Translations under genes and position numbers: made by a program
Notes under the pieces: model-generated
Told to the model about the DNA's origin: nothing
What the model saw: the letters and a program-made list of their open reading frames with translations, nothing else
The model's database searches: none
Shown: positions 3,009 to 23,102 of the stretch, piece by piece
Numbering within the stretch: the first letter of the stretch is position 1
How the letters are laid out: every line of letters starts with the position of its first letter
NCBI GenBank assembly: GCA_031418215.1
Contig: JANOXC010000119.1
Coordinates: 4,245 to 68,244 of the forward strand
Direction of reading: 5' to 3'
Source: Bacteroidota bacterium
GTDB lineage: Bacteria; Bacteroidota; Bacteroidia; AKYH767-A; OLB10
Length of the DNA stretch: 64,000 nucleotides

Positions 3009-3030
3009 CAAGGCTTTTTTATAAAATTAA

Positions 3031-3056
3031 TAGCCCGGGAATTATTTCCCGGGCTA
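3031..3056. terminator. Bidirectional intrinsic terminator-like hairpin between convergent genes
   Basis: Perfect 11-bp stem TAGCCCGGGAA-ttat-TTCCCGGGCTA between the stops at 3008 (+) and 3090 (-). Confidence 0.8.
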
Positions 3057-3089
3057 CTAATGAAACAAGATTTGATTTATTCAAAATTT

Positions 3090-6000
3090 CTACGGCCTTG
3101 TAAAGTCATAATTTAAAACCTGGTTGTTATAAATAATTGTTTCTTTACTCCATGTTTCAATTGAATTACGATGTCTTAATACAAGGTAATAACGGTGACC
3201 GGATATTAAGCCGGCAAAAGTAAAAGTTCCATATCCTTTGGTATTTATTACACTTGTATCAGAAGATACAATCTGATAGGTTGCAGAATCTGCCATAGAT
3301 AAAATAACGGAATCACAAATTGCAGGAAAATTAAGTGGGTCAAGTACTGCCATCATTGAATCCATTCCGGGAATATAAAATCCCTCTATAAAGGCCCTTA
3401 GATTCAATGTTACATTACAAGTGTTGTTATGATACACTCCGGTAATGGAATCACAGCCATCAATTGTACAGGCATTGTTATCATCAACAAGTATCGGAAT
3501 ATGACTTGGTCCGGTTACTGGGTTACAAGCATCCGCTGTACAAGCATTGGCATCATTAACTGGAATAACTGTATGTAAAGGTCCGGAAACAGAATCACAA
3601 GCGTCCGCAGTACAAACATTAATGTCATCAAATTGTATTAACAAGTGCGTAGGTCCGGCTATTGCATCACATCCATCTATTGTACAAATGTTTGCATCAT
3701 TTATTATTGGAAGATCGATATGTGTTGTCCCGGTTAATGAATCACATCCATCAGTTGTGCAAATATTATTATCATCTACTACCGGCAATGCAATATGTGT
3801 AGGGCCGGTTATTGCATTACAACCATCAGTTGTACAAACATTATGGTCGTTTTCGAAAGGCATTAATATATGTGTAGGCCCTAACAATGGATTACAACCA
3901 TCAGTAGTACATACATTATTGTCGCTAAAATTTACTGGCAAATAGGAATTGGTAATGGAATCAAAGTTTGCCGAAGTACATGCATCAAGTGCCAGTAAAT
4001 TTCCGGTATTGTTATAATAAATGGTATAACTTGCAGGTTGTATAAGTTGCAAATTACCTGGAAGAACTAAATAATTTCCGGGAGGGATGGTATCGGACAA
4101 TACCGGAAGATTTAAACTATCTATAACGGAATAGGTTGGAAGTCCAGCTAAAACCAAACTGTCAACATCATAATAATGATACCCCTTAATGTGATGTGTG
4201 AATACGGGTGTTTGTCCAAAAACAAGTACTGTGTCATTGGAAGATACATTAAGCTCAGCCTTAGTTATTGTTAAAGTTCCAAGATCATAAGAAACATCAT
4301 AGTTATCGGAAAGGTATGCACCCGGAACAATTGCCCAGGTACCTGCCGTAAAGCCGGTGATCATGTTAACGGACCGGAAATCTTCCAATGTATCATAAGA
4401 AGGCGCATTTACGTCGTCAGCATCAATTACAACAACTACATTTTCATTACTGCTATCTGACACCGTGGTTGAATTAAGCAGATTTTTTGCATTAATTAAA
4501 TTCTTGGCATTAATCAGGTTTTTGGCATTTACATAGGCAGATCCATTAATAAGATTTTTTGCATTTACCGCTGCTTTGGCATTGATATTAATAAGATTCC
4601 GTGCATTGATAAGATTTCTTGCATTAATCAACCTGGCGCTGTCTGGTCTTACCTGGTAATTAAAAATACTCTCCGGATCAACATCAATTAATCTGGTTGT
4701 ATCATATACAATTGTATTTGTATTGATCAGATTTTTGGCATTAATAAGGTTCCTGGCATTGATAAGGTTCCTGGCACTTACTAAAAAACTCAAATGTTGA
4801 ATATCAGCATTGATCAGATTACGAGAGTTCACCAGGTTTTTGGAATCAACAAGTACCAATGCATCAGCAATCTGACTACTATGCTCTAGCATCAATCCTG
4901 CACGAATCGCTAGCCTGTCAGTTGTGTCTATCGCAATTGAATCATAAGCATAAACAAATTTAAAATCTGTTAATTTATCTCCATAAACCAAGGTAGTGTC
5001 TTTCGGTTTGATGTTAAGTGGCATTTTTTCAATGCTAAGAAGTCCATTGTCAAACTCGTATGCATACTTATCCAGCAAGATGGATGATAATGAATCAGTA
5101 GGATCCAATGGATCAATAAAAGGCTCAATGAAATAATTACCCACATTACTTAAGGTGACTGCCGAAGTGAGGTACTTTACACTATCCAGTTTTAGTTCTG
5201 CCAATGTAATATTCAACGAATCTATCGGTTGACCGTCAATTTTTACTGAAATTGAAAAAGCAGGAATTTTTTCTCCATATTTTTTCGTTTTGTTGTCGGC
5301 TGTAATGACTATATGCTTCTTGAAAAAATAAATGGTATCAGAATTACCACCATCCAGCGCAAGTGTAGTTACTGCCGGGTTATGTATATATAATGGCGGA
5401 TTCCCTGTAAACGCTGGTATCTGCGCAGTAATCACATTTGAATTTACATAAGTAGAACTAATTAATATTCCATTAAACCATACCTGTGAGTTAGGAATGA
5501 AATAAGCCCCATTAATGGTAACCACAAAGGGTGCAGAACCAGGTGTTATAGAATCAGGCTCAACAAGGCTATCGGCAATTGGTGATCCGGAAACGAGTGA
5601 AGCAATTGCAGAATCGGCCTGCAATAGTCCGTAACCTGTTTCAAAATCAAAACCACCGGCTGCCATATCGCGACTGGTATTTTGAAGAATTGATTTTATT
5701 TCATCAGGCGTCATTCCCAAATTAAAAAACTTTTTCTTTGCCTCAATTAATAATGCTGCAACAGCGGCTGCATGAGGGACTGCAGCGGAAGTACCAAAGA
5801 AATTCGGAAATTTATCATTATCAATATTCTTTCCACCAAGGTTCACTGTAGTATTTACACCATTCGGTGCGATAAAATCTGGTTTGTTTCTTAATAAATT
5901 ATTTACTGTTGTTCCACCTGCAGAAGAAAAATCTTCTACCAAAGCCGGACTCACACCAAATGCAGGTGTTTTTGTGTACCGAGCGGCTCCAACAGTCATT

Positions 6001-9000
6001 GCTCCGATAGCATTTGCCTGACCAACAATTGTTGAATTGTTACTGTTGTATTCAGTAATGGTAAGATCTCCGCGGAAAACAATATATTTAAATCGCATAC
6101 TACCAGTACCGGCTGCACGCACAATCATTATGTTGGCTTCACTGTTTCCTTTTACAACAAAAGGTAATATTTCTACTGGGTCAGCTCCAATATTTGTTCT
6201 GTTGAATCCAAAGAGGCGATTACCAAAATCATCAGCTAAATAGATGTCAAGATCGGTGCTTGCACCTGGATATTGACCCATTGAAAAGAAAGAATCTTCC
6301 CATTGTAATACGATACAATAAGTACCCGACAACAGTTTAACATGTTGAAGAATATCAGTTCCGGTGCTTGCAAAATTGTGTGCCTGACCCACATATCCTG
6401 CGGGTGGAGTTGCGGGTTTAAAAACCGCATCATAGGATTTATCACCAAAATTTCCTGCAGATGTAAAATAGGCAACACCATGTGCTTTGGCGGAATCCAC
6501 AGCTTGCGCTATGATACCATCCTGGAAGAAAGGCTCAGAAGGAAATGTAATATCATCAATTATTATATTACAGGAATCCGCCTCCAGTTCCCTTATACCT
6601 TCAGCCATATTACTGGCTGTTAAAAATCCTGTACGAAAAGCCAATTTAGCTTTTGGTGCAACATCGCGTATAATCTGCATCATGGCCCTGCCCTCATCTG
6701 ATTTTCTTCCGAAAGGATAATCCTGAAGCACATTAATAGATGTTGCAGGCGGTAAATCACCGTTATTAATATCAACTTGTGCAGGGTTGCCGGCTTTCTT
6801 ATTATAACTGTCAGATAAAATTCCAATCTTAATTCCTGAGCCATCAACTTTGAATACCTTTCTTGCTATATCAGCTCTAATGGCAATATCACCTTTTGAA
6901 TAGGCCACACCTATCCCCTTAGGTTTTGCCGCGCCTGAAAATGGAGATAATAATACATGTACTTCATTAATCAATGTAGTAAGCGAATCCAGTAAATTTA
7001 ACTTTGCCTGTGGAAACTTTCCCGTAATGATTAAGGAGTCGTCTCCATTATCAACAATATCTACCATACCATAATCAACACTCTGTAACAAGGTTAATAC
7101 TGAATCGTACATGCCTTCAAAAGGAATTACATTAATAAAAACACTATCAACGCCAAGTACAATCAAACTTGTATTAACCGCATTAGCCGCTGTTGTAGTG
7201 GTATCAGCAATTGAATCAGGGTTATTTTGAATTTGCTGTAATTCACCTATAATGGCGGATGACTTTCCACTGTCGGAAGAAGTAAAATATGGTATAATGC
7301 AATTTACTAACGCCATGGAAATGGATGTTGATGGACCGGTACAACCATTGTTTGTTAGTGTTACACCATAAGTTCCCGGAGTAGTAACAAGAAATGAATC
7401 GGCAACTAAATTGCCGGGTGTCCATACGTAACTGTAATTATTTATTAATCCCGGAGTTGAATCAGTTACAAATAATGTAGAGGTCCCTCCTTCAGCGCAA
7501 AGCGGACTGTTAGGTATGATATGCGCCGTAGGATAGGGAGTTACTCTAACCTCAACAAGCTTAATAGTTGAACATCCTGTATTTGCAAGTCCTTTTATAT
7601 AATAAGTTCCTGAAGCGTTAATAGCTGCCGGAGCTGCTATTGTTGTATAAGCAATACTATCTTTCCAATAGCTGTATGCTAAACCACTTTGCGAACCGGA
7701 TACAATTGTTGAATTTGTTAAATTGACAGTTAATGGTGCACAAACAGTAGCCGGATTGGTGATTTGTATTGATGGTGCAGCGACAACAAATAAATTAACT
7801 GAATCCGTTTTTACACATCCGTTATTCCCTGTTACAGAAACTGAATAATAACCGGAAGTATTGGCATTAGTGTTAGTGATTTTCGGATTTTGTTGGGATG
7901 AAGTAAATCCATTGGGTCCACTCCAAACATATGAAATACCTCCGCCGGCAGTTAAATAAATAGTCGCGCCTGAGCATATCGGACTAATGAAGCTTGCCAA
8001 TGTTATTGGGGCAGGAATATGAGTAATGACCACAGGTTTTATATCATAACAACCAGCAGTCGTGATGCCTTTAATATAATAAGTACCTGCAACAGTAACT
8101 GCATAAGGAATTATAACAGCTGAAGTAGCCTGGATGTTATTCCAATAACTATAAGCAAGTCCATTCGTCGAACCTGAGGTAATTAAAGTGTCAAATAAAC
8201 TCACTTTAACATTTGAGCAAACAGTTGCCGGATTGGTGATTTGAACAACAGGAGTTGGATTAACAGTTATATATATAGAATCGGATTTACTGCAACCATT
8301 GGCATTTGTAATGGTAACTTTATAATATCCTGAATCAGCAACTGCGGGATTAGGTTTAATTGGACTTTGAAGGTTTGAATTAAATCCATTCGGGCCATTC
8401 CAAGAATAAGCTGTTCCTCCTGATGCGGCAGAAAATTTAATAGAATCTCCCGAACATATAGGGCTATTTGTTGTTGGTGAAACGGATGGCAATACCAGAA
8501 TAGTAAAATTCCACGTAGTACAACCCGCTGCTAAGCTAAATCCATTTCGCGGAACTACTTTCCAGGAATAACTGCCAGGAGTAAGTGGAGTTAAAGTTGT
8601 ATAACTTGTATTTGCTTGATTGGTTGAAACCAATGTTACACTGCCTGCAGATGGATATAAATAAACATCGTAACCGGTAGCCGTGGCAACAGCAGGCCAA
8701 CTCAAAGTACTATTTATCGCAATACAAAGTGATGAGCCATTAGATGGAGCTGTTGGTGCTGCAACACAAGTTGGTATTGTTGAAACCACACAAATACTAA
8801 ATGATGCAGGCGCACCAGCTGTTGTGCCTCCAGTTCCTGCATGATAAACTCTTACGTAATAAATATGACCAACAATGGTAGTAAAACCTGATGACTCAGA
8901 TGATCCGGCAGTATTATTTAGATTACGACATAGAATGGAAGTTTTTGAATTGCAATTTCCTGGACCAATACCTCCATAATATACCTGAAATGCTGGATCA

Positions 9001-15000: not shown

Positions 15001-18000
15001 GTTGCAAGTGAAACATAAAGATTATCACCATAAAAATATTGTGAGCCTAATACTAAACCATTCGTTGATTGATTAAATGGATTTCCCAGTGTACCCAAAG
15101 TACCAATCCATAATAAAGATGGGCCACTTGTATTAAATGTTTGAAAATAATTCGATGGGTTATTTACAGGATTTACTGTTGGCAAACTTGTAAATGTTCC
15201 GGTATCAGTACAGAGGTAAACATTATTTCCGGAAAAGTATCTACTCCCTAAATTTGCAGCTGTTGTTCCTACAGCAATAGGCAGTACAGATGCACCAAAA
15301 ATTACCGGAGGAACGCTGTAATTTCCCATAGTGTTTAATACAACATTGGCCAACCGGTTATTCAGACTTTGTCCATACACCTGTGCAGTATTATCAATTT
15401 TCAGTTTGCCGTTGGTTGAAATATCTCCAACGTAATCATTGAATGTTCCGGCAAGAATAAGGTTTTGTATTGTATTAATATTTAAACTTGAGGCATTAGA
15501 CATGGTCATACCACGAATAATTCCATTAAGGCTATCACCAACAAAATTTCCTGATCCACTGATGATCTGTGGTGAAGCCCCATTAAAAGAAATATTTGCA
15601 AGCGCTAAATTTGCCAATCCATTATTTACAAAGTTTCCTGCAAGGTTTAATGTAACAGTACTTAAACCGGAAGTATAAGGGAAAAATGATCCTCCTTGAT
15701 TGACGGTGAGGTTGCCTCCTACTGTTAAAGCGTTTGATGTACTATTCCATTGAAGCACAGCGCCACTATCAATCGATAAATTGTTCGCTGCTGCTACCGT
15801 ATCAATAGTAACAACTGAAAGACTTAAAATATTTACATCATCGCTTACCGAAGGTACCATTCCATTATTCCAGGTATTGGGATTGCTCCAAAGACCTCCT
15901 TTAATTGTTGAACTAATGCTCGTTGGAATATGGGTTGTAAAAATGTTAACCGTGCACAATGTGGCCGCCCCAAATTGATTTCTGGGAATTACAGTCCAAT
16001 AATAAGTAGCAGCGGAAATAAGCGAGCTTGAAATTGTAAATGATGTTGTAGAAATATTACTAGCAATTTTTACCGTTGCACTTAATGAATTAACTAATGA
16101 TTGACTAGTGCTTAGATATACGTCATAGCCTGTTATATTATCACCGATTACCCCGCTCCATGATAAGACAGGTTTAATAGAAACATTTGTGGTATTGGTG
16201 AGTGGGGAAAAAGTAGTGATGCACCCCGGAACTCTATTTGTATTGGTAGTGGCTGTATCGTTAAGCGGATTCAAAGTCTGATAAATAGGACCAATGCATG
16301 TTCCCGGATTATTGCTCATTGAATAAACATAGAAACGGTAAGTTGTATTTTGAGTTAACCCTGTGGCAACAAATGGAGATGTTGATGCATAATTTCCAAC
16401 AACGACAACAGTACCAAGACCAAGCGTATTTCCGGTCGAATAAGTGGTTTTATCGGAAGGCGGTGTAACTGCAGAACCAACGGGATAAACAACAACTAAA
16501 TATCCATCAGGTAAACTGGGAGCCTGCTGAAAACTACCTGCTATTCGGGTATAATAATTTGCAACAGGAGCAATAGTTAATGAAGTAGGTTGATTGGCAG
16601 GAACAGCACAATCAATTTGCAATGGTGGTTTTGAATAATATATATCCTCAAATGCTCCAATGTCGGGTGTAGTAGCATTTCTCGCGTTTCCGGAATAATC
16701 TCCATTGATAGCAATTGGAGAAGTTATAGGAGCAGCAGTTCCTTCTACATAAGTTGGATTAGCAGCTGAAGTATCAACTTTTAGGAAATTGATATTACTA
16801 TATGAAGTTGACCTAAATACCACATCCTCCGTTAATGAAGATTGGTCACGAGATATCATAAAAGACTGATAGGAAGTGGTACCGTTGAAATTTTGCTTTG
16901 CATTTAAAACCGGATTTGCAGTGCCTTCACAATAAATCAGCTTATTCGGTCCAGGAATACCTGTATAAAAAATATTCTTATTAGAATTGATTGAATAACT
17001 GGAGGTTAATGTGCCGCTTCTTCGGTATGCTGCACTTACACCGCCTGTACCGCCCGATCCGCCAGGACTAATCAAGTTGATGAAAATATTATTGCGTAGG
17101 GTAAGATTTGGCGAAGTTGATGCATTAATTGCACTAGATCCATAAAGCGAACCGCTACCCGACGCACCACTCAATCGTACAGTATTATATGTCACATTAA
17201 CCGTTGTGCCACCCAATACATCAAGTCCAATCACTGAATGCGCACCTGTCGCAGAAACAATAGAATTAATATTACTAACAAGATTATTATAAATATGTAG
17301 CGTGGTACCGCCTGTTATTTCAATGCCTTTTGCAACGGCTGATGATGAACCGCCAATAATGCCACAAATTGCATTTTTATAAATGCTTACAGTCGTCCCA
17401 CCCGAAACTCCAATTCCTCTTACTATTCCTCCTCCCTTAATGGAATCTGTACTGATGGTGTTACCATATATATTAACCGTAGTTCCTCCAGTATTTAGAA
17501 TACCGGTTACATTACCTGTTCCACTTCCCACAACTTCTAAAACAGAATTATTATAAACAGAACTTGTTGTGCCAGAATTACTGATACCTGAAACTGTACC
17601 ACTTCCAATTCCACTGCTTTTCATTCGTGAAACAACATTTGAACTCAGGCTACTAGATGCACCGGAGTTCGAAATGCCGGTAATTGTCACTGAATTAGTA
17701 TTACTGTTTGTAGAGGTAACATCTGTTATAAGATTGGAATCGCAGCTAATGGAAGCAAAGTTGCTTATACCGATTAAAGTTCCAGTTGAACTACTGTTAG
17801 TAGTCAACAACTTAATATTGTTATTTCTTACTATTCCTGTTACAGTGCTTGATATCAACATACCGGTAACTGAACCACTTGTAACAGTTCCTGAAAGCGT
17901 AAGTGAAGTTATTGTATCATTTTGAATATTAACGGCACCAACTACCGTTCCGATTCCAATAATTGATGCATTACCCGAAGCAGATAAATTTGAAACTTTG

Positions 18001-21000
18001 TTTCTTTGAAAAGACTTATTTCCCGCAACCCCAAATTCATAAATACCCCTTATAGTTCCTGCACCTCCTACAGATAAATTCTTTACAATATTGTCGTTTA
18101 TCGTAACATTCACAGCAGAGGTGAAACTGAAAAATCCATTAATAATTCCAATGGAAGATGCATTGCTATAACTATTGTTTTCGACAAGGTTTCCGCTTGC
18201 TGTCCAATTTTGAGGACTGATTGTTTTAATACCGTGCATTGAACCGGATGTTCCTGTGCAAATATTATTTCCTATATAATTATTATTAGATGTTAATGTT
18301 GAACTACCACCTGTTGTACTCCCTGTTTCCATCAAAGTAACCGTACCAGTTCCTCCTATGGTATCATTCATTACAACGTTGTTATTCATAATTGTTGCAA
18401 CCGTTGAAGTTCCCGTTGTTGAAATTCCTGTGAAGGAACCTGTAGTAATGGAATCCATTTTGATTAACATTACCGTATCACTACTCATTGTCATGTTTCT
18501 TGGTGAAGTTCCGGTAGAAGCAATTCCAACAAAGGAACCTGTTTTAGCACCCCTCGTAATATTAGAAACTCGGTTATTACTACATATAACATCAATGTTG
18601 GTAGAACTACTGTTCAAGATTCCATTGAATGCAGCTGTGGACGCCTGTGGTTGATTTACGTTGCCAACAAAATTGTTATTCATTGTAAGCGTTGAGCCGG
18701 TAAGCAAAGCAGTTCCTGAACCCGGTTCCACTGTTATCCCTGTAATGACACCTCCTAATGAAGAATTATTGCAATTAGTAATTGTATTGCTATTTATATT
18801 GATGATTTCTTTCCAGTTAGGAATACTGTTTGTTGGCCAATTTACACAAATCATTCTGTTAGAACCAGCACTTGATCCAGAGAAAGTATTTCCTGAAAAA
18901 ACATTGCCAATTATATTTAAAGAATCATGGGCAAACTGATCAAGAATTCCATTCATAGCTATACTTGAAGTTGTAATGTTAGAAGTATTGCTGTTGTTGA
19001 GTACCTGATTATTACTGATTGTCATTTTCGCGGCTGACATTGAATCTGTAATCAGCTTATTAATTAGAATTGACATAAAAAAAGCATTAGCTGTAGGAGG
19101 TATATAACAATTTTGAATGATGTTACTGTCAATTAGTATTGTATTGCTTGGCGCTCCAACTCTTGTCGTACGATTGCCGGCAAGAGAATAAATACCAGTG
19201 ACGCCATAACCTGATGGTCCACCTGATGGTCCACAATTTGTCGTTAATGAAATTGTGTTTTTCGAAATTGTCGCATTGGCATTTTGAGATGACCACAATC
19301 TCATTCCTTCCACCCAGGCGCTGTGTATCACACCGGTAAGATTGGTAATGGCATTTCCTACAATTGAAAAATTATTGTTATTGCCTATTTCAATTCCTAT
19401 GGCAGCATTAGCTGTATCACCCCCTCTTCCGAAATCGGAAATCGTATTTCCTTCTCCGGCTCTTCCAATTTCATTATCCTGATCATAAAAAGTAAAGGGT
19501 GCTACATCAGCATAACCATACATATTAATTCCCTGGAAACAATTGCTGATGGTGTTACTATAAAACTTATTGTACGAATTGGTGCCTGACAAATTTGTAA
19601 TTGTAGGATAAATATAATTTGCATCGTATGCCCTGGTCATAATACCAAAGGTGGAAGCTAAATTTGATTTATCAAGCGTGATGGAACAGTTCCTGATGGT
19701 ATTGTGTTGTGCTCCATCAGTTCCGGAACATAATACAAATTCAAAGCCTACTTCAGCTTTTGTAGCGTCAGTTGTATTGGCTGCATTCTCACGCAAATCA
19801 AGACCGTTGAAAGTGATATAGTCTGAACCAACCAATCTAAATATCCGATCAAAACCGCCAGGACCAGCACCGGCATATATAATCGGATTGGCACCGGCGC
19901 CTGATTTTTGAAAAGTAACTGTTTGTGCAGCATTTGATTTCAATGAATCATTCAAGCTGCACATATTAATAACCAATCCGCCTGAAGGTGCTGTTTCAAT
20001 ATGACCCGTCTCCAAATTAAAAATCACATTGCCATTTACACCGCGTGAATTTAAATCACTGATTGAAGCGGCCAACGATGTGTAATTGGTGCAGGAGGCA
20101 GATAATGCACTGTTTATTGTATAGGTTCCTGATAAAGGAATGCTTCCATTTACACTCATCACTATCATATTGGAAATTGCAACAGAATCACCTGAATTAC
20201 AAACAGGAACAGAGGTCATTTCACAGGATATGGTATCAAAATTTAAAATAGAAGACGTGGTATAAATGGTATCATTAGTTCCCACATTTACACCATTTTT
20301 TTTCCACTGAAAAGAGGGATTGGCTCCAGCATTGTTCCTTAATGCGACAAATGTTACAGATCCTCCGATGCAAAGATTATTCTGAACAACACTGATAATT
20401 AATGATGATGATTGGGTAATATTTATATTCGTACCATTGTTATTTCCAATTACTGCGGGATTACTTCCCACCACCCTGATTCTATATGCATTGCCGCTTG
20501 AAGCATTAAACGGAATAGTACACGCAATATTATTGCTTGTTAAACTGGATATACTTCCGATTGCTATTGGGTTTGAAAAACTGCCCATTGAATCACTCAG
20601 TTGGGCAGTGAATATATTTCCTGAAATAAATGTCCCGGTAATTGTGTAGAAAACATTCAACGCATTACCTGAACAAAAAGAAGTATCAACAAAACTAGTT
20701 GTAATGGTTGATGGTATCGGAATAGAAATGTTGCACCCAAAAGTACTGGTACTGGTTGTTGTTCCATCACCCAATTGGCCGAATGAATTAAGTCCTGTCA
20801 TACAAATGTTATCACGATGTGCTTTAATAACACCAGTATGATAGGAACCAGCAGAAACAGCAACAACATCTGTTTGAGAAGATATGAGCGTAGGAATGAT
20901 TTTATTAATTATTGTTCCATCACCCAATTCCCCGTCTGCATTGTTACCCCAGGACCAAAGGCTGCCACTTGTTTGCATGGCAAACGAATTACCATTACCA

Positions 21001-22949
21001 CATGAAGTTGAAATCCAATTTACATTACTGCCAATTTGAACAGGGCTTGAACTATTGGTAGTTGTTCCAATTCCAAGTTCTCCACTGCCGCCACTTCCCC
21101 AACCCCATAAAGTTCCATTCGCTTTTACAGCAAGATTATGATATCGTCCGCAAGAAATAATATGCCATGTATGTTCCGTACCTATTTGGGCCGGGCTATG
21201 GATCTCAGTAGTTGTTCCATTGCCCAATTGACTAAAATCATTTCTACCCCAGGTCCATAAGGTACCATCTGCTTTGCGCGCAATGGTATGCCCCCAACCG
21301 CATTCAACATTTATCCAGTCAGTGGCAGATCCAATCTGAACTGGTGCATTATGATTTGTTGTTGTACCATCCCCCAATTGTCCCTTACCATTATACCCCC
21401 ATGCCCATAGAGTGCCGTCTGATCTCAAAGCAAGTGTATGCGCTTCACCGGTGGAAACATGAGTCCAATTTGTTCCACTGCCAACTTGCACCGGACTATT
21501 ACGCTGTATATTATTTCCATCACCTAATTGACCGCTTCCATTTGCTCCCCATGCCCAAAGTGTCCCATCAGATTTGATAGCTAATGTGTGATCAAATCCA
21601 CAAACAACAGAAATCCAATTATTTGAATTTCCTATTTGTACGGGAATTGATCGGTTAACTGTTGAGCCATCACCCAAATGCCCGGTTGTATTTTGTCCCC
21701 ATGCCCAAAGTGTACCATCTGTTCTGATACCAACAGAATGAAACATCCCATATGCTACCATTAACCATTCTGTTAAAGCATCTCTTGTTTGAACAGGGCT
21801 ATTTCGCAGGACTGTGCTACCATCGCCTAATTGTCCGAATGCATTATCTCCCCATACCCAAAGTGTACCATCTGATTTTAATGCCATTGAATGATTGTAC
21901 CCACCGGTAACGCTTACCCATTTGTTATCACTACCAACCTGAACAGGGTTTGCATGTGTACTGTTATCTGTTGATCCAATGCCTAGTTCTCCACTTGAAT
22001 TCAATCCCCATGTCCAGAGGGTTCCGTTAGATTTCAATGCCAGCAATTGATTTCCGCCTGAGGCTATAGTTACCCAGTTGTTATCTGTTCCGACTTGTGT
22101 AGGAGTTGGATGTGTATTGAAATCGGAACTTCCATTTCCTAATTGCCCCTGGCTGTTTCGTCCCCATGCCCATAATGTACCGTTTGATTTAATTGCCAAA
22201 GTATATTGCGATAAACCTGCAGCAAATTCTTTCCAGTTATTTTCAATTCCTACTTGTAAAGGAGAAGGATGAGTATTTGCATCAGCAACACCATTACCTA
22301 ATTCTCCAGTATTATTATCACCCCATGCCCAAAGCGTACCATCTGATTTTAATGCTAAAGTGTGATATACACCAGCGGAGATCAACATCCAATTGTTATC
22401 TACTCCTACCTGCACAGGACTATTTCGTTGTGTCGTAGTGCTATCACCTAATTGCCCGAAGGAATTATCACCCCATGCCCATAATGTACCATCGGTTTTT
22501 AATGCATGTATACAATAACCGGCTGTTGAAACACTCACCCATTTGTTATCACTCCCTACCTGGGTAGGATTTGTATGTGCAGATCCATCGGCAGATCCAG
22601 ATCCTAATTCTCCTTCAGCATTTCTTCCCCATGCCCAAAGCGTGCCATTAGATTTTATAGCCACTGAGTAAAGTTTTCCTGCTGATATAGTTACCCAATT
22701 ACTATCGCTGCCAACTTGAACTGGATTGCTGGAATTTGAATTTGTGCCATTGCCCAACTGACCAAATCCATTAGAACCCCAGGCCCAAAGAGCTCCATTC
22801 CTTATCTCAAGAGTATGAAAATCCCCTGTTGACATTCTCTGAAAGTTGTTGCGGTATGCGACAGAGGTACTGTTACTCGCTCTGTTGTATTGCGCACTGA
22901 CAGAAAAGAACAAGGAAATAAAATACAATGTAAGTAGAGTTTTCTTCAT
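3090..22949 (-). CDS. Giant 6619-aa secreted multidomain surface protein (RCC1 double propeller, beta-helix, phage-like repeat cassettes, subtilase-fold protease, MBG, Cys repeats)
   Basis: One 19.86-kb ORF with a Sec signal peptide (MKKTLLTLYFISLFFSVSAQ) and recognisable domain motifs along its whole length; detailed in findings. Confidence 0.95.
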   Translation of the reverse strand: MKKTLLTLYFISLFFSVSAQYNRASNSTSVAYRNNFQRMSTGDFHTLEIRNGALWAWGSNGFGQLGNGTNSNSSNPVQVGSDSNWVTISAGKLYSVAIKSNGTLWAWGRNAEGELGSGSADGSAHTNPTQVGSDNKWVSVSTAGYCIHALKTDGTLWAWGDNSFGQLGDSTTTQRNSPVQVGVDNNWMLISAGVYHTLALKSDGTLWAWGDNNTGELGNGVADANTHPSPLQVGIENNWKEFAAGLSQYTLAIKSNGTLWAWGRNSQGQLGNGSSDFNTHPTPTQVGTDNNWVTIASGGNQLLALKSNGTLWTWGLNSSGELGIGSTDNSTHANPVQVGSDNKWVSVTGGYNHSMALKSDGTLWVWGDNAFGQLGDGSTVLRNSPVQTRDALTEWLMVAYGMFHSVGIRTDGTLWAWGQNTTGHLGDGSTVNRSIPVQIGNSNNWISVVCGFDHTLAIKSDGTLWAWGANGSGQLGDGNNIQRNSPVQVGSGTNWTHVSTGEAHTLALRSDGTLWAWGYNGKGQLGDGTTTNHNAPVQIGSATDWINVECGWGHTIARKADGTLWTWGRNDFSQLGNGTTTEIHSPAQIGTEHTWHIISCGRYHNLAVKANGTLWGWGSGGSGELGIGTTTNSSSPVQIGSNVNWISTSCGNGNSFAMQTSGSLWSWGNNADGELGDGTIINKIIPTLISSQTDVVAVSAGSYHTGVIKAHRDNICMTGLNSFGQLGDGTTTSTSTFGCNISIPIPSTITTSFVDTSFCSGNALNVFYTITGTFISGNIFTAQLSDSMGSFSNPIAIGSISSLTSNNIACTIPFNASSGNAYRIRVVGSNPAVIGNNNGTNINITQSSSLIISVVQNNLCIGGSVTFVALRNNAGANPSFQWKKNGVNVGTNDTIYTTSSILNFDTISCEMTSVPVCNSGDSVAISNMIVMSVNGSIPLSGTYTINSALSASCTNYTSLAASISDLNSRGVNGNVIFNLETGHIETAPSGGLVINMCSLNDSLKSNAAQTVTFQKSGAGANPIIYAGAGPGGFDRIFRLVGSDYITFNGLDLRENAANTTDATKAEVGFEFVLCSGTDGAQHNTIRNCSITLDKSNLASTFGIMTRAYDANYIYPTITNLSGTNSYNKFYSNTISNCFQGINMYGYADVAPFTFYDQDNEIGRAGEGNTISDFGRGGDTANAAIGIEIGNNNNFSIVGNAITNLTGVIHSAWVEGMRLWSSQNANATISKNTISLTTNCGPSGGPSGYGVTGIYSLAGNRTTRVGAPSNTILIDSNIIQNCYIPPTANAFFMSILINKLITDSMSAAKMTISNNQVLNNSNTSNITTSSIAMNGILDQFAHDSLNIIGNVFSGNTFSGSSAGSNRMICVNWPTNSIPNWKEIININSNTITNCNNSSLGGVITGITVEPGSGTALLTGSTLTMNNNFVGNVNQPQASTAAFNGILNSSSTNIDVICSNNRVSNITRGAKTGSFVGIASTGTSPRNMTMSSDTVMLIKMDSITTGSFTGISTTGTSTVATIMNNNVVMNDTIGGTGTVTLMETGSTTGGSSTLTSNNNYIGNNICTGTSGSMHGIKTISPQNWTASGNLVENNSYSNASSIGIINGFFSFTSAVNVTINDNIVKNLSVGGAGTIRGIYEFGVAGNKSFQRNKVSNLSASGNASIIGIGTVVGAVNIQNDTITSLTLSGTVTSGSVTGMLISSTVTGIVRNNNIKLLTTNSSSTGTLIGISNFASISCDSNLITDVTSTNSNTNSVTITGISNSGASSSLSSNVVSRMKSSGIGSGTVSGISNSGTTSSVYNNSVLEVVGSGTGNVTGILNTGGTTVNIYGNTISTDSIKGGGIVRGIGVSGGTTVSIYKNAICGIIGGSSSAVAKGIEITGGTTLHIYNNLVSNINSIVSATGAHSVIGLDVLGGTTVNVTYNTVRLSGASGSGSLYGSSAINASTSPNLTLRNNIFINLISPGGSGGTGGVSAAYRRSGTLTSSYSINSNKNIFYTGIPGPNKLIYCEGTANPVLNAKQNFNGTTSYQSFMISRDQSSLTEDVVFRSTSYSNINFLKVDTSAANPTYVEGTAAPITSPIAINGDYSGNARNATTPDIGAFEDIYYSKPPLQIDCAVPANQPTSLTIAPVANYYTRIAGSFQQAPSLPDGYLVVVYPVGSAVTPPSDKTTYSTGNTLGLGTVVVVGNYASTSPFVATGLTQNTTYRFYVYSMSNNPGTCIGPIYQTLNPLNDTATTNTNRVPGCITTFSPLTNTTNVSIKPVLSWSGVIGDNITGYDVYLSTSQSLVNSLSATVKIASNISTTSFTISSSLISAATYYWTVIPRNQFGAATLCTVNIFTTHIPTSISSTIKGGLWSNPNTWNNGMVPSVSDDVNILSLSVVTIDTVAAANNLSIDSGAVLQWNSTSNALTVGGNLTVNQGGSFFPYTSGLSTVTLNLAGNFVNNGLANLALANISFNGASPQIISGSGNFVGDSLNGIIRGMTMSNASSLNINTIQNLILAGTFNDYVGDISTNGKLKIDNTAQVYGQSLNNRLANVVLNTMGNYSVPPVIFGASVLPIAVGTTAANLGSRYFSGNNVYLCTDTGTFTSLPTVNPVNNPSNYFQTFNTSGPSLLWIGTLGTLGNPFNQSTNGLVLGSQYFYGDNLYVSLATQTGSVPPTHPSGIVGNLLYVGSPAKASINYDPTATLNVRSVTLTNAGSGYSVSPSLTINENGGTTTTSASGSTVLIQRIEGTSSFTTTKGTAATITGGLTINSTAGATAFSGVGSIVIPASSSTGAGVGYTVAPQVGFTLPVGALNFITNGGSGYIAAPTVSISADTAGRIINNSASPTLPTFTAVVAGGKVVSLIISSAGTALFSSLPAITISAPTGSGPVQAMAAFPVGCLPTATAVIGFNGQLNNFNITNSGFGYTSAPTVGLGTATNAGIAVVAATTTPTAKIALYNLTYSQNTSAATVANPSITTGVEIPVSNRMNSLVVGSTTTVNGSIGANFANVTLTAPLELTASVTALSLPSSTVVSPSVLNLGGNTLTFSHPSYTGLTTSTPSTPLYLLFGYVTNGPITLKSLGGTQSKAFPFDATVTLNATNASLPNQSGATATSYTVTQLGAATGSINAASGNPIGSRSYRVQANGTLGVGAGTTSGTAETPTLQLRWNGNDNFSPSQRLASIFIGQSTISSAGSWTMRSLSDVSAGDTATVFSVTNGMQVGNRTTTQPFSPGPFNLANGEYFSFVTTSNNSVSSTAIGGLWSNPSTWINGVVPTVNDSVVISNGATVTVDVLVGIKSLTVGVVGGGGSAILQWSSTSQMTVTGNILINSNGSFLQYSASTSPFGATIKIGGNFTNNGFANCAANGTILSFLGNTLPGGNNVQFLSGSGSFKGDGTKGIIRTIQVASTGSLTINTSENLVTSGLNVWGATLNTGGKLTIDNTAQVYGQGYNSRVNNVVVTNMGQQYSAAPVVFGTAVVKDTSAGNIAGQTTTVGTYYWYGTRVYLCTAAANFNTTPPTSTASTTFNTSGPTLLYIGELGTLGNPFNITASGLIAGTQYFYRNNLYVVASISNQTGSASSPPVHTSGIVSNLLYVGTVAKVSVNYDASTSRVRSLQLDSAGSGYSVVPSLSFSTVTGATVVSPAVATPVMIQRMDGPSNSLLQKNATAIISGGLTINNDQGAPATASGITKGSGVGQVFISTTSVTGAGVNYTVAPTVGFAGPTALNLVTNSGSGYTVAPTITITGTPVSGTALTSANFTITVSQGKLVSVYLNTGTAATYSSPPTISISGNGTIAWPGGCWPTAIVVINTNRQINNFAITNSGYGFTTAPIVGLGGGTATTVASTAPTARIALYNIAYNNISPLSANNSQNGVATAGAEVPSNNKINALLLSGNSPIGGVKLLGKLELFGSSPLSFSSGILDLNGDTLLCSLYSYSGTTGSVSANVSNGVISLTAPGGSVTRTFPFDGSIQVATGTGSLSTGSTITQISASRLGRPTGTGGPIGKRTNRLNIPVGMVYGTKPLVTLFWTVNDSLVSDQGGLFVGQAPAVNGPWTTRSTAVGTANTPLSATGSKQTADTITGPIVPTGDDFYAWLSTYTPVPLQYNITRATNTTYNSIINSGNTFTWISSSGDEALSNVVTIPGSTFTYCGQVITGFQLLTNGIIRLVSTATPAFTVTGSTYSNRFAPSVNPTAAILNGSSFPFMLAPFYTDLISDPTISGGTAIYDVKTKWKITGTTGARKIIAEWKDFTMYGVSNSLISIQVILDESDNSISYNYGPLQAFNGTQDARLSYGVGFTGIFVNDPALQGQVLAQQYENSDVFSYTNTNVLARGTTGLSIAPSCNSTIKFTPGTGYTGGTVPPTTPPNNDDYSGATFIAPVSVLPDNLCGNIYSSRFATASNNVAVCAGNNDDDVWFKFNAKNINTNVVVYASGGYIPRVQVLNNSFNSISCKVGIVESGMANNTTYPGAGVFLNSAIMTIPDSIYYVRIYHERGGVKATATASFSPGGGITNIVMNNNGSGYNTALFSISGGSTSGRVTISGGGGIGAIGTVNQGSGTVSSISISTAGYGYTSQPTVDIESPNWGITGEFALVVLSPDASNDECANATELASANSLTCNTGLNQIVNVSTTNATASADTTLCGIADDDVWYWFAGTGYNTVTVTGSGAYDPAFQVYYGGIGPGNCNSKTSILCRNLNNTAGSSESSGFTTIVGHIYYVRVYHAGTGGTTAGAPASFSICVVSTIPTCVAAPTAPSNGSSLCIAINSTLSWPAVATATGYDVYLYPSAGSVTLVSTNQANTSYTTLTPLTPGSYSWKVVPRNGFSLAAGCTTWNFTILVLPSVSPTTNSPICSGDSIKFSAASGGTAYSWNGPNGFNSNLQSPIKPNPAVADSGYYKVTITNANGCSKSDSIYITVNPTPVVQITNPATVCSNVKVSLFDTLITSGSTNGLAYSYWNNIQATSAVIIPYAVTVAGTYYIKGITTAGCYDIKPVVITHIPAPITLASFISPICSGATIYLTAGGGISYVWSGPNGFTSSQQNPKITNTNANTSGYYSVSVTGNNGCVKTDSVNLFVVAAPSIQITNPATVCAPLTVNLTNSTIVSGSQSGLAYSYWKDSIAYTTIAAPAAINASGTYYIKGLANTGCSTIKLVEVRVTPYPTAHIIPNSPLCAEGGTSTLFVTDSTPGLINNYSYVWTPGNLVADSFLVTTPGTYGVTLTNNGCTGPSTSISMALVNCIIPYFTSSDSGKSSAIIGELQQIQNNPDSIADTTTTAANAVNTSLIVLGVDSVFINVIPFEGMYDSVLTLLQSVDYGMVDIVDNGDDSLIITGKFPQAKLNLLDSLTTLINEVHVLLSPFSGAAKPKGIGVAYSKGDIAIRADIARKVFKVDGSGIKIGILSDSYNKKAGNPAQVDINNGDLPPATSINVLQDYPFGRKSDEGRAMMQIIRDVAPKAKLAFRTGFLTASNMAEGIRELEADSCNIIIDDITFPSEPFFQDGIIAQAVDSAKAHGVAYFTSAGNFGDKSYDAVFKPATPPAGYVGQAHNFASTGTDILQHVKLLSGTYCIVLQWEDSFFSMGQYPGASTDLDIYLADDFGNRLFGFNRTNIGADPVEILPFVVKGNSEANIMIVRAAGTGSMRFKYIVFRGDLTITEYNSNNSTIVGQANAIGAMTVGAARYTKTPAFGVSPALVEDFSSAGGTTVNNLLRNKPDFIAPNGVNTTVNLGGKNIDNDKFPNFFGTSAAVPHAAAVAALLIEAKKKFFNLGMTPDEIKSILQNTSRDMAAGGFDFETGYGLLQADSAIASLVSGSPIADSLVEPDSITPGSAPFVVTINGAYFIPNSQVWFNGILISSTYVNSNVITAQIPAFTGNPPLYIHNPAVTTLALDGGNSDTIYFFKKHIVITADNKTKKYGEKIPAFSISVKIDGQPIDSLNITLAELKLDSVKYLTSAVTLSNVGNYFIEPFIDPLDPTDSLSSILLDKYAYEFDNGLLSIEKMPLNIKPKDTTLVYGDKLTDFKFVYAYDSIAIDTTDRLAIRAGLMLEHSSQIADALVLVDSKNLVNSRNLINADIQHLSFLVSARNLINARNLINAKNLINTNTIVYDTTRLIDVDPESIFNYQVRPDSARLINARNLINARNLININAKAAVNAKNLINGSAYVNAKNLINAKNLINAKNLLNSTTVSDSSNENVVVVIDADDVNAPSYDTLEDFRSVNMITGFTAGTWAIVPGAYLSDNYDVSYDLGTLTITKAELNVSSNDTVLVFGQTPVFTHHIKGYHYYDVDSLVLAGLPTYSVIDSLNLPVLSDTIPPGNYLVLPGNLQLIQPASYTIYYNNTGNLLALDACTSANFDSITNSYLPVNFSDNNVCTTDGCNPLLGPTHILMPFENDHNVCTTDGCNAITGPTHIALPVVDDNNICTTDGCDSLTGTTHIDLPIINDANICTIDGCDAIAGPTHLLIQFDDINVCTADACDSVSGPLHTVIPVNDANACTADACNPVTGPSHIPILVDDNNACTIDGCDSITGVYHNNTCNVTLNLRAFIEGFYIPGMDSMMAVLDPLNFPAICDSVILSMADSATYQIVSSDTSVINTKGYGTFTFAGLISGHRYYLVLRHRNSIETWSKETIIYNNQVLNYDFTRP
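3425..3930 (-). repeat. Seven tandem ~24-25-aa Cys repeats (DxNxCTxDxC..G..H), Dictyostelium CTDC-like
   Basis: e.g. DDNNICTTDGCDSLTGTTH, DDNNACTIDGCDSITGVYH; one further degenerate copy precedes them. Confidence 0.85.
4476..4850 (-). repeat. NA[RK]NL[IL] hexapeptide array within the giant protein
   Basis: About 11 close copies plus degenerate ones, in two blocks (SARNLINARNLINAKNLIN; NAKNLINAKNLINAKNLLN). Confidence 0.9.
20740..22835 (-). repeat. Fourteen RCC1-like repeats (two 7-bladed propellers)
   Basis: 14 copies of a ~51-aa unit, G..H.LA.K.DGTLWAWG.N..GQLG.G......P.Q.G...W; the last is degenerate. Confidence 0.92.
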
Positions 22950-23015
22950 GGTTGAGTGACTAAAAATAAATATATTGGGAATATATATAGATATAACTTA
23001 TTATTTATAGGCTAA

Positions 23016-23023
23016 CAAATCTA
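23016..23023 (-). promoter_or_regulatory. Candidate -7 promoter element (TAGATTTG) for the giant gene, proximal
   Basis: Matches TAnnTTTG about 66 nt upstream of the ATG at 22949. Confidence 0.55.
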
Positions 23024-23102
23024 CCAATTTTAACTGACAAAAACTAATACGCTTGCAGAGTAAAATCGCAATAAAAATAGGCTTACTAAAAGACATTAAT
23101 AG

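What the first reader, a model, noticed from the sequence alone, without database searches (positions are those of the whole stretch)
3090..22949. A 6619-aa mosaic surface protein combining binding propellers, phage-like virion repeats and a distal-from-tip protease
Seen: one intact 19.9-kb ORF with a signal peptide and at least ten module types, with its own promoter boxes and terminator, flanked by ordinary genes. Known: Bacteroidota export very large adhesins (e.g. SprB), but those are mostly one repeat type with a canonical T9SS CTD. Inference: this is a stand-alone filament-like surface machine (RCC1 binding tip, long stalk, basal protease) for attachment to or attack on prey, host cells, particles or phage. 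I do not recognise this domain combination from any characterised protein.
Basis: partly seen in the sequence, partly recalled or inferred. Interest (0 to 1): 0.85.

Follow-up and report, generated by a model that had tools for sequence, protein, structure and literature searches.

The report
Giant mosaic surface protein, Bacteroidia
An uncultured freshwater-sediment Bacteroidia bacterium encodes one intact 6,619-residue secreted protein stitched together from modules that other Bacteroidota carry on three separate families of secreted surface proteins; it is an unusual build of a familiar kind of protein, not a new kind of machine.

Summary
The ORF is real: window 3090..22949, minus strand, 6,619 aa, no internal stop. 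Contigs from seven sediment metagenomes in two studies tile it at 99% identity or more, with even depth. No frameshift or stop was seen in the four runs laid over the whole gene.

It is a mosaic, in this order:
- Sec signal peptide
- two RCC1 propellers
- 2 Ig domains
- a 1,150-aa beta-helix
- fn3
- a duplicated 890-aa "unit A"
- an unknown domain
- 2 PPC-like domains
- about 5 SprB/GhpA-type Ig domains
- an S8-like subtilase with TIG and MBG domains
- Dicty Cys-rich repeats
- an orphan beta-sandwich at the end

Three blocks each match a separate Bacteroidota family at 30-49% identity. Most members of these families end in a T9SS type A sorting domain (CTD). The giant has no type A, B or C CTD and no PorP/PorE neighbour.

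Its strong hit to the Aureispira grappling-hook protein GhpA covers only about 480 aa of shared Ig repeats, so it is not a GhpA homologue. The "protease" has an invariant Glu where the catalytic His should be. The phage likeness is real but weak.

Most likely it is a C-terminally tethered surface fibre with a distal binding head. How it crosses the outer membrane is unresolved. I rate it a new variant of a known kind, of moderate interest.

The parts
22890..22949 (-). Start codon and Sec signal peptide (aa 1-20, MKKTLLTLYFISLFFSVSAQ)
   Evidence: The n/h/c layout was judged by inspection; no predictor was run.
20730..22862 (-). RCC1-like repeats, 13-14 blades, enough for two seven-bladed propellers (aa ~30-740)
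   Evidence: WD40_RLD 582 bits, RCC1 x13. UVR8, HERC1/2 and RCC1 structures, E down to 6e-50.
20130..20729 (-). Two Ig-like domains (aa 741-940). No Pfam model matches them, but they recur in other Bacteroidota giants.
   Evidence: 39-49% identity to repeats in P0144, P0226, P0181 and P0275; no Pfam hit.
16650..20129 (-). Beta-helix-type module of about 1,150 aa (aa 941-2100) with a conserved N-cap and C-cap
   Evidence: 342 homologues at 28-48% identity, some named right-handed parallel beta-helix or T9SS type A sorting domain proteins. In them the module follows the signal peptide directly. No Pfam hit in the giant itself.
15930..16649 (-). fn3-like pair (aa 2101-2340)
   Evidence: fn3 E 6.5e-6; similar to the fn3 at aa 4725-4826.
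13272..15941 (-). Unit A copy 1 (aa 2337-3226): a G8-like beta-helix cap followed by all-beta modules carrying GSGY motifs
   Evidence: duplication; 20 homologues; AF2: residues 10-180 confident, the rest low; weak phage likeness.
10680..13271 (-). Unit A copy 2 (aa 3227-4090), 33-55% identical to copy 1
   Evidence: G8 E 4e-4; 34-49% identity to metagenome giants.
9960..10679 (-). Unknown domain "x4090" (aa 4091-4330), part of the conserved cassette
   Evidence: 30-44% identity, in the same position, in L082, L153, L154, L155, L107/108, L157 and L150. No Pfam or NCBIfam hit.
8760..9959 (-). Two PPC / galactose-binding-like domains with a GSGY module between them (aa 4331-4730)
   Evidence: internal repeat, 36%. 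GBD_T9SS_assoc E 1.5e-3. PHROG 460, 438 and 701..
7305..8777 (-). fn3 plus about 5 Ig-like domains of the SprB/CHU_C-associated type (aa 4725-5215). This is the only part similar to the GhpA stem.
   Evidence: Ig_7 E 2e-11, PKD. GhpA (9flp) 753 bits in 19 stretches over GhpA residues 1154-4673; no other segment hits GhpA.
5580..7304 (-). S8-like subtilase with an upstream propeptide-like region (aa 5216-5790). Ser5721 and Asn5500 are conserved; Glu5419 sits at the His position.
   Evidence: mirolase, AprV2. (family at 40-49% identity). (residue conservation, 30/30).
4011..5579 (-). TIG/CoaZ domain, MBG domain, ARNLIN short repeats, second MBG domain (aa 5791-6313)
   Evidence: colinear with the S8-MBG family up to aa ~6313.
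3435..4010 (-). Cys-rich Dicty_CTDC repeats, period about 43 aa (aa 6314-6505)
   Evidence: 83 bits.; the same repeats sit directly upstream of the terminal domain in P0206, P0227, P0258 and P0265.
3093..3434 (-). Orphan terminal beta-sandwich (aa 6506-6619), ending ...YDFTRP
   Evidence: 2,402 cluster representatives; position classes; pLDDT 92; no specific structural relative; no homology to the type A CTD; no family model.
3026..3061 (.). Perfect 16-bp GC-rich hairpin between the convergent genes; a probable bidirectional terminator
   Evidence: MFE -36 kcal/mol for the 106-nt stretch, z -6.6.

Best explanation
The gene encodes a giant Sec-exported extracellular or cell-surface protein of an uncultured freshwater-sediment Bacteroidia bacterium.

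How it was built. It arose by end-to-end fusion of modules that elsewhere form three separate families of Bacteroidota secreted proteins, most of them T9SS type A cargo:
1. a beta-helix "head" family;
2. a family of 2.4-4.9-kaa proteins built on the cassette fn3 - unit A - x4090 - PPC - Ig, with unit A duplicated here;
3. an S8-like - TIG - MBG family.
The fusion is capped N-terminally by a double RCC1 propeller. It is capped C-terminally by Cys-rich Dicty repeats and an orphan beta-sandwich.

How it most likely works (inferred). The C-terminal end holds the protein at the cell envelope. The beta-helices and Ig/fn3-type domains form an extended stalk. The propellers and beta-helix at the far end bind a ligand such as a particle, a polysaccharide or another cell. 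The S8-like domain sits near the cell-proximal end, where it either processes substrates or processes the protein itself.

Shown: the ORF, its modules, their homologies and the independent assemblies. Inferred: surface location, orientation, binding function and enzymatic activity.
For: - The ORF is intact and recovered independently in seven metagenomes from two studies. Contigs span every junction and show no frameshift. The 22 SNPs comprise 9 synonymous and 13 non-synonymous changes and no stops.
- The S8-MBG block (aa ~5170-6313) is colinear at 40-49% identity over 1,050-1,500 aa with 1,400-2,400-aa proteins carrying PF00082, PF18676 and PF18962.
- The beta-helix block has 342 homologues, most with PF18962. 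In them the module follows the signal peptide directly.
- The central cassette (aa ~2240-5000) is colinear at 37-49% identity with complete 2,800-3,800-aa metagenome ORFs. Two of these end in PF18962.
- The host genome encodes T9SS type A cargo (window 50611-52152).
- An RCC1-repeat protein with a type A CTD has been detected on the Flavobacterium psychrophilum surface, dependent on gldD/gldG (PMC5682007).
- GhpA sets a precedent for a giant Bacteroidota protein with an N-terminal distal binding module and C-terminal anchoring (bioRxiv 10.1101/2024.01.29.577165).
Against: - No type A, B or C T9SS sorting domain is detectable by HMM, by profile-profile comparison (probability 0.2%) or by fold.
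- No PorP/SprF or PorE gene is adjacent.
- Passage through the outer membrane and anchoring are therefore unexplained.
- The terminal domain also occurs N-terminal to a true CTD in small proteins, so it is not demonstrably a sorting signal.
- No transcript evidence was found.
- The S8-like active site lacks the canonical His.
- Most of aa 940-4330 has no structural or functional assignment.
Confidence: 0.55

Rival explanations
1. It is a GhpA-like grappling hook: a T9SS-exported protein that multimerises into a rigid fibre and catches prey for ixotrophic predation.
For: - Strong PDB hit to GhpA (9flp): 560-753 bits in 18-22 stretches.
- Comparable size, 6,619 against 5,898 aa.
- A signal peptide and an N-terminal binding-type module.
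- The source paper reports GhpA relatives widely in Bacteroidota.
Against: - The similarity is confined to aa ~4731-5215, about 7% of the protein. These Ig repeats match GhpA's stem repeats many times over.
- Segments aa 741-2340, 2337-4730 and 5210-6619 give no GhpA hit.
- The N-terminus is made of RCC1 propellers, not the GhpA hook.
- There is no T9SS CTD.
- There are no ghpB/ghpC-like neighbours.
- The stalk is heterogeneous, not a run of Ig domains.
Confidence: 0.08
2. It is a self-processing precursor. The S8-like domain, with its propeptide-like region at aa ~5216-5350, cuts the chain and sheds the N-terminal ~5,200-aa adhesin/beta-helix part into the medium or onto a partner. The protein would then work as a released binding or degradative factor rather than a tethered fibre.
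For: - The region upstream of the catalytic core is conserved across the family and lies where subtilase propeptides lie.
- Autocatalytic propeptide cleavage in subtilases is established knowledge.
- No anchor signal was found.
- Beta-helix modules are common in polysaccharide-active enzymes (general knowledge).
Against: - The catalytic His position is Glu in 30/30 members and the Asp position is D or N, so activity is uncertain.
- No cleavage site can be predicted.
- No catalytic motif was found in the beta-helix.
Confidence: 0.15
3. It is an assembly chimera or a decaying pseudogene with no function.
For: - Short-read metagenome origin.
- Contig-graph joints in the repeats.
- No RNA evidence.
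Against: - Runs from two studies hold 93-100% of sampled words.
- Contigs tile the gene with even 5-9x depth and cover every junction, including a 4,547-nt contig across the only recurrent break.
- No indels or stops were found.
- A 19.9-kb open frame at about 39% GC cannot arise by chance.
- Each block keeps its family's invariant residues.
Confidence: 0.04

Closest known systems
GhpA, grappling hook protein A of Aureispira sp. CCB-QB1 (PDB 9flp; bioRxiv 10.1101/2024.01.29.577165)
   Same: Giant Bacteroidota protein with a Sec signal peptide. Shares the ~80-aa Ig-like repeat type (753 bits over 19 stretches). The likely general logic is also shared: a distal N-terminal binding module and a cell-proximal C-terminus.
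   Different: Only about 480 of 6,619 aa are homologous. The N-terminus is RCC1 propellers, not a hook. The stalk is a mix of beta-helices and unknown domains. There is an S8-like domain, no T9SS CTD and no PorP/PorE genes downstream. Heptamer formation is unknown.
Uncharacterised Bacteroidota S8-TIG-MBG proteins (for example Owenweeksia hongkongensis 'MBG domain-containing protein', 1,902 aa; Solitalea longa C3K47_16135; Ferruginibacter and Niastella 'S8 family serine peptidase')
   Same: Colinear at 40-49% identity over aa ~5170-6313, including the propeptide-like region, the DEGRAM, AGN and GTSAA motifs, TIG, MBG and the short Asn-rich repeats.
   Different: Those proteins are 1.4-2.4 kaa. 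They start with a ~370-aa module plus PKD/Ig domains and end in a T9SS type A CTD. The giant has about 5,200 aa in front and Dicty repeats plus an orphan domain behind.
Metagenomic giants with the cassette fn3 - unit A - x4090 - PPC - Ig (loci L082, L153, L154, L155, L107/108; freshwater metagenomes)
   Same: Same module order at 37-49% identity over giant aa ~2240-5000. Large size, 2.4 to at least 4.9 kaa.
   Different: In them the cassette begins about 200-500 aa from the N-terminus and unit A is single. None of those examined carries RCC1, the long beta-helix or the S8-MBG block. Their ends vary: PF18962, GEVED, or terminal domain plus dockerin.
SprB gliding adhesin of Flavobacterium johnsoniae
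   Same: Giant Bacteroidota surface protein (about 6,500 aa) rich in Ig-like repeats.
   Different: SprB has SprB repeats (PF13573), a type B CTD and a cognate sprF gene. None of these was found here.
Mirolase (Tannerella forsythia, PDB 8ehe) and AprV2 (3lpd), T9SS-type or extracellular subtilases
   Same: Best solved relatives of the Ser-containing half of the S8-like domain (E 3e-11 to 9e-16).
   Different: They have the canonical Asp-His-Ser triad and are about 350-aa enzymes. Here the His position is Glu, and a ~190-aa insert splits the fold.

Membership tests
GhpA grappling-hook family | Full-length colinear homology to GhpA | tested here: not met
   Segment-wise PDB searches: only aa ~4731-5215 hits 9flp. 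Segments aa 741-2340, 2337-4730 and 5210-6619 do not.
GhpA grappling-hook family | N-terminal adhesin-like hook module | tested here: not met
   aa 1-760 matches RCC1-type propellers (UVR8, HERC2; E 6e-50) and not GhpA.
GhpA grappling-hook family | Stem made of successive Ig-like domains | tested here: not met
   Only about 5 such domains are present, roughly 7% of the length. The rest is beta-helix, unit A, PPC and S8-like.
GhpA grappling-hook family | C-terminal T9SS sorting domain, with ghpB (PorP-like) and ghpC (PorE-like) downstream | tested here: not met
   No CTD. The neighbours are a CarboxypepD_reg protein, SRAP and an SDR.
GhpA grappling-hook family | Heptameric assembly | not testable with these tools
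   No multimer prediction or imaging is available.
T9SS cargo | Sec signal peptide | tested here: met
   MKKTLLTLYFISLFFSVSAQ at the N-terminus. Judged by inspection only.
T9SS cargo | Type A CTD (PF18962 / TIGR04183) | tested here: not met
   No hit at E <= 1 on the last 115 aa, or at E <= 0.01 on the last 2,019 aa. hhalign against a type A CTD alignment gives probability 0.2%. Foldseek returned no CTD structure.
T9SS cargo | Type B CTD (PF13585 / TIGR04131) with an adjacent PorP/SprF gene | tested here: not met
   No hit. No PorP/SprF neighbour. Definitions follow PMC10202324.
T9SS cargo | Type C CTD (NF033708, ChiA type) | tested here: not met
   No NCBIfam hit at E <= 1. The model is in the library, because it scored on a neighbouring gene.
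T9SS cargo | Host organism has a T9SS | tested here: inconclusive
   Window gene 50611-52152 carries a type A CTD, which implies a T9SS. No T9SS component gene lies in the window.
Bacteroidota S8-TIG-MBG family (uncharacterised) | Colinear core: propeptide-like region, S8-like, TIG, MBG, Asn-rich repeats, MBG | tested here: met
   40-49% identity over 1,050-1,500 aa. The invariant motifs are shared.
Bacteroidota S8-TIG-MBG family (uncharacterised) | Family-typical ends: a ~370-aa N-terminal module and a C-terminal PF18962 | tested here: not met
   Replaced by about 5,200 aa in front and by Dicty repeats plus the orphan domain behind.
Peptidase S8 (subtilases), catalytically canonical | Asp-His-Ser triad plus the oxyanion Asn | tested here: not met
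   Ser5721 and Asn5500 are invariant. The His64 position is Glu5419 in 30/30 members, and the Asp32 position is D in 24 and N in 6. Pfam matched only profile positions 138-288.
SprB-type gliding adhesins | SprB repeats (PF13573), type B CTD, sprF neighbour | tested here: not met
   None found.
fn3 - unit A - x4090 - PPC - Ig cassette giants (uncharacterised) | The same five modules in the same order | tested here: met
   Giant aa ~2240-5000 against L082, L153, L154, L155, L107/108, L157 and L150, at 30-49% identity per module.
RCC1-like domain proteins | Seven-bladed propeller built of RCC1 repeats | tested here: met
   13 RCC1 stretches and WD40_RLD at 582 bits. Structures at E 6e-50.

The most novel reading that the evidence does not exclude
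The orphan terminal beta-sandwich (aa 6506-6619) is a fourth, unrecognised C-terminal sorting or docking module of Bacteroidota secreted proteins. The giant would use it in place of a T9SS type A, B or C domain.

The module has 2,402 cluster representatives and no Pfam, NCBIfam or PDB relative. It closes diverse signal-peptide-bearing enzymes, including an M23 peptidase, a GH26, a nuclease/phosphatase and several propellers. Among the 150 best hits it is at the very C-terminus in 75 and followed only by a dockerin-like tail in 62. Homologues of the giant's blocks end in PF18962 where the giant ends in this domain.

Small proteins made of this domain, a dockerin-like module and a true T9SS CTD could be its surface-anchored partners.
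Probability: 0.15. Interest if true: 0.75.

Novelty: new variant of a known kind. Interest (0 to 1): 0.45.

Why it matters
Giant modular surface proteins shape how environmental Bacteroidota attach to particles, polymers and other cells. Almost none has been characterised apart from SprB and GhpA. This one shows how far module shuffling can go, with three normally separate cargo families fused into one 690-kDa chain.

It also exposes three uncharted pieces that a specialist could test directly:
- A very common C-terminal beta-sandwich with no family model. It replaces the T9SS sorting domain in many secreted proteins.
- A widespread subtilase-like family whose catalytic His is always Glu.
- A conserved "unit A" cassette that defines a family of 2.4 to at least 4.9-kaa freshwater proteins.

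None of this is a new class of machine, and the biological role remains inferred.

Tried and rejected
Searches that failed or found nothing:
- Whole-protein and 5,000-aa homology searches failed, one for length and one on time-out.
- The search for homologous proteins never returned anything longer than 2,445 aa. Its silence on full-length relatives is therefore not evidence of absence.
- A GTDB genome scan with the beta-helix block found no close relative. The second scan went to PurL for taxonomy, so the nearest MAGs were not checked for an ortholog.
- Searching for RNA runs found none.
- Looking for a conserved neighbour of terminal-domain proteins found only ordinary T9SS cargo next door.

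Structure comparisons that led nowhere:
- Foldseek of the 890-aa unit A model (pLDDT 66) against the PDB gave nothing significant.
- Foldseek of the terminal domain gave only generic beta-sandwiches with TM below 0.5. Its profile has no PDB sequence relative.

Readings considered and rejected:
- "GhpA homologue" was rejected once segment-wise searches confined the hit to the Ig repeats.
- "The terminal domain is a T9SS CTD" was rejected.
- "The terminal domain is itself proven to be a sorting signal" was rejected, because it also occurs upstream of a real CTD.

Methods that proved uninformative:
- The sigma-70 promoter scan is uninformative for Bacteroidota and did not exceed shuffles.
- A global hhalign to subtilisin misaligned across the ~190-aa insert. 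The local N-terminal alignment was used instead.
Full report
**The observation**

The window holds one open reading frame at 3090..22949 on the minus strand. It has an ATG start, 6,619 codons and no internal stop. The N-terminus, MKKTLLTLYFISLFFSVSAQ, has the charged, hydrophobic and small-residue layout of a Bacteroidota Sec signal. I judged this by inspection.

The flanking genes are unrelated housekeeping-type genes: a cyclase, an SRAP, a CarboxypepD_reg-domain protein, an SDR, a transglycosylase and PurL.

A perfect 16-bp GC-rich hairpin at 3026-3061 sits in the 81-nt gap between the giant and the convergent gene. The promoter boxes are not above chance.

**Is it an assembly artefact?**

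The central 6 kb is present at 93-100% of sampled words in seven sediment metagenomes from two studies. Contigs of four runs tile 3040-23030 at 99% identity or more. Depth is even at 5-9x, and there are no insertions, deletions or stops.

Every boundary between module types is spanned by a contig in at least one run. The one recurrent break near 8,700 is bridged by a 4,547-nt contig in another run.

Of 22 SNPs, 9 are synonymous and 13 are not, and none is a nonsense change. Within the limits of short-read contigs, the ORF is genuine.

**Whose gene is it?**

PurL, encoded next door, is 70-81% identical to PurL of uncultured Bacteroidia and Bacteroidota MAGs only. A gene in the window carries a T9SS type A sorting domain. 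The host is therefore an uncultured Bacteroidia bacterium from freshwater sediment that almost certainly has a T9SS.

**Anatomy**

| aa range | Module |
|---|---|
| ~30-740 | 13-14 RCC1 blades, enough for two propellers; nearest structures UVR8 and HERC2, E 6e-50 |
| 741-940 | two Ig-like domains |
| 941-2100 | beta-helix-type module |
| 2101-2340 | fn3-like pair |
| 2337-3226 and 3227-4090 | "unit A", an ~890-aa unit duplicated at 33-55% identity |
| 4091-4330 | unknown domain |
| 4331-4730 | two PPC / galactose-binding-like domains with a GSGY module between |
| 4725-5215 | fn3 plus about 5 Ig domains of the CHU_C-associated / PKD type |
| 5216-5790 | S8-like domain preceded by a propeptide-like stretch |
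| 5791-6313 | TIG/CoaZ, MBG, ARNLIN repeats, MBG |
| 6314-6505 | Dicty_CTDC Cys-rich repeats |
| 6506-6619 | compact beta-sandwich; AF2 pLDDT 92 |

About 3,400 residues (aa 940-4330) match no Pfam or NCBIfam model above threshold and no PDB sequence.

**The GhpA lead and why it fails**

PDB sequence searches gave a striking hit to GhpA, the 5,898-aa grappling-hook protein of Aureispira (9flp), at E 1e-166 to 1e-226.

According to its paper, GhpA is a T9SS substrate. It forms heptameric 240-nm hooks that catch prey flagella. It has an N-terminal hook, a stem of Ig-like domains, a C-terminal T9SS domain, and PorP- and PorE-like genes downstream.

Segment-wise searches show that the similarity lies entirely in aa ~4731-5215. 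These Ig repeats match 19 or more stretches along GhpA residues 1154-4673. The other segments give no GhpA hit. The giant also lacks the hook, the CTD and the ghpB/C neighbours. It shares a repeat type with GhpA, not an architecture.

**A mosaic of three families**

1. *S8-MBG block.* The C-terminal block (aa ~5170-6313) is colinear at 40-49% identity with hundreds of 1.4-2.4-kaa Bacteroidota proteins. They are annotated as S8 family serine peptidase or MBG domain-containing protein. Hosts include Owenweeksia, Solitalea, Ferruginibacter and Niastella. They carry PF00082, PF18676 and a T9SS type A CTD.
2. *Beta-helix block.* It has 342 homologues. Most carry PF18962, and in them the module follows the signal peptide directly.
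3. *Unit A cassette.* Unit A has few hits in the protein database. A metagenome scan, however, found 80 loci in which it sits near the start of large ORFs. Complete ORFs run to 2,400-4,356 aa, and truncated ones reach at least 4,872 aa.

In several of these loci the whole order fn3 - unit A - x4090 - PPC - Ig matches giant aa ~2240-5000 at 30-49% identity per module. Their C-termini vary:
- L155 and L153 end in PF18962.
- L154 ends in the orphan domain plus a dockerin-like tail.
- L082 carries GEVED domains.

The giant is thus a head-to-tail fusion of three otherwise separate cargo families. RCC1 propellers are added in front and a Dicty-repeat-plus-beta-sandwich cassette behind. RCC1 cargo is itself known on a Flavobacterium surface (PMC5682007).

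**The missing sorting signal**

None of the three recognised T9SS C-terminal domain types is present (definitions in PMC10202324). There are no HMM hits even at E <= 1 on the last 115 aa. Profile-profile comparison with a type A alignment gives probability 0.2%. Foldseek finds only generic sandwiches.

The terminal domain nevertheless belongs to a very large family, with 2,402 cluster representatives. Among the best 150:
- 75 carry it at the extreme C-terminus;
- 62 carry it followed by an 80-93-aa dockerin-like tail.

Its carriers are signal-peptide proteins with M23, GH26, nuclease/phosphatase, propeller, SprB and PKD modules. The Dicty repeats often sit directly upstream. That distribution looks like a sorting or docking module.

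Against this, ~295-aa proteins exist that consist of this domain, a dockerin-like module and a genuine PF18962 CTD. The domain is therefore not by itself shown to be a secretion signal. How the giant crosses or attaches to the outer membrane remains open.

**The "protease"**

Ser5721 (GTSAA) and the oxyanion Asn5500 (AGN) are invariant in the giant and 29 relatives. The position that aligns with the catalytic His of subtilisin is an invariant Glu (DEGRAM). The Asp position is D in 24 members and N in 6.

Pfam matched only the C-terminal half of the S8 profile. A ~190-aa insert splits the fold.

The domain may be a Ser-Glu enzyme, as the sedolisins are. That comparison rests on my own knowledge. 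It may instead be a self-processing module or be inactive.

**The phage likeness**

The GSGY modules hit several phage sources:
- T4-like cyanophage "structural proteins" (31% identity, E 1e-4, 53 records);
- PHROG head-closure, baseplate-wedge and virion-structural families (E 2e-7 to 7e-5);
- a cyanophage "endosialidase" model (E 9e-6, but TM 0.13).

The Ig block hits a phage tail family (E 5e-9). These are shared decoration-type domains and do not indicate a phage origin.

**Mechanism**

The best-supported reading is a Sec-exported surface fibre held by its C-terminal end. The beta-helix and Ig/fn3-type modules would act as an extended spacer. The propellers and beta-helix would be the distal binding head, and the S8-like domain would lie near the cell. 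I give this a confidence of about 0.55.

The modules and their homologies are shown. Location, orientation, ligand and enzymatic activity are inferred from the families each block belongs to and from the GhpA and SprB precedents.

The rivals are:
- a self-cleaving precursor that sheds its N-terminal 5,200 aa (0.15);
- a true GhpA-like multimeric hook (0.08);
- an artefact or pseudogene (0.04).

**Verdict**

This is a real and unusually composite member of the known class of giant Bacteroidota surface proteins. I rate it a new variant of a known kind, with interest of about 0.45. The most valuable by-products are the orphan C-terminal domain family, the Glu-for-His subtilase-like family and the unit A cassette family.

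Noticed in passing
window 5580-7304 (aa 5216-5790) and homologues P0001-P0120: In the whole S8-like family (30/30 sequences examined) an invariant Glu (motif DEGRAM) occupies the catalytic His position, and the Asp position is D or N. Ser and the oxyanion Asn are invariant. A ~190-aa insert splits the fold. This may be a Ser-Glu subtilase variant or a non-protease.
   Followed up: partly
window 3093-3434 (aa 6506-6619); proteins P0141-P0290: The terminal beta-sandwich has 2,402 cluster representatives but no Pfam, NCBIfam or PDB relative. It occurs in three contexts: at the very C-terminus, followed by a dockerin-like tail, or in ~295-aa proteins followed by a dockerin-like module and a T9SS type A CTD.
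   Followed up: partly
window 3549-3895: Contig-graph joints in several runs skip 129, 132 or 267 nt. That is the period of the Dicty_CTDC repeats (about 43-44 aa) or twice it. The cause may be repeat-number polymorphism between strains or de Bruijn graph ambiguity. The supporting sides are only 21-24 nt long.
   Followed up: no
loci L082-L161 (metagenome contigs): Unit A defines a family of very large ORFs in metagenomes, apparently mostly freshwater. Complete ORFs are 2,400-4,356 aa and truncated ones reach at least 4,872 aa. Most of their length beyond the cassette matches none of the giant's modules.
   Followed up: partly
window 50611-52152 (+): A BD-FAE-type esterase with a T9SS type A sorting domain (PF18962 / TIGR04183). 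It shows that the host genome encodes T9SS cargo.
   Followed up: yes
window 28036-29343 and 29349-30629 (+): Two adjacent ORFs of 435 and 426 aa with no Pfam or NCBIfam match, even at lenient thresholds.
   Followed up: no
window 1755-3008 (+): A convergent neighbour of 417 aa. It has an N-terminal CarboxypepD_reg-like domain, as at the start of SusC-type proteins, followed by about 300 unassigned residues. It is not a recognisable PorP/SprF.
   Followed up: partly
window 8000-16000 compared with the flanks: The centre of the giant gene has G+C of 0.39-0.42, against 0.34-0.36 in the flanking genes.
   Followed up: no
tool behaviour: the search for homologous proteins returned no protein longer than 2,445 aa in any search, and it did not return the giant itself. 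Giant relatives may be invisible to that tool.
   Followed up: no
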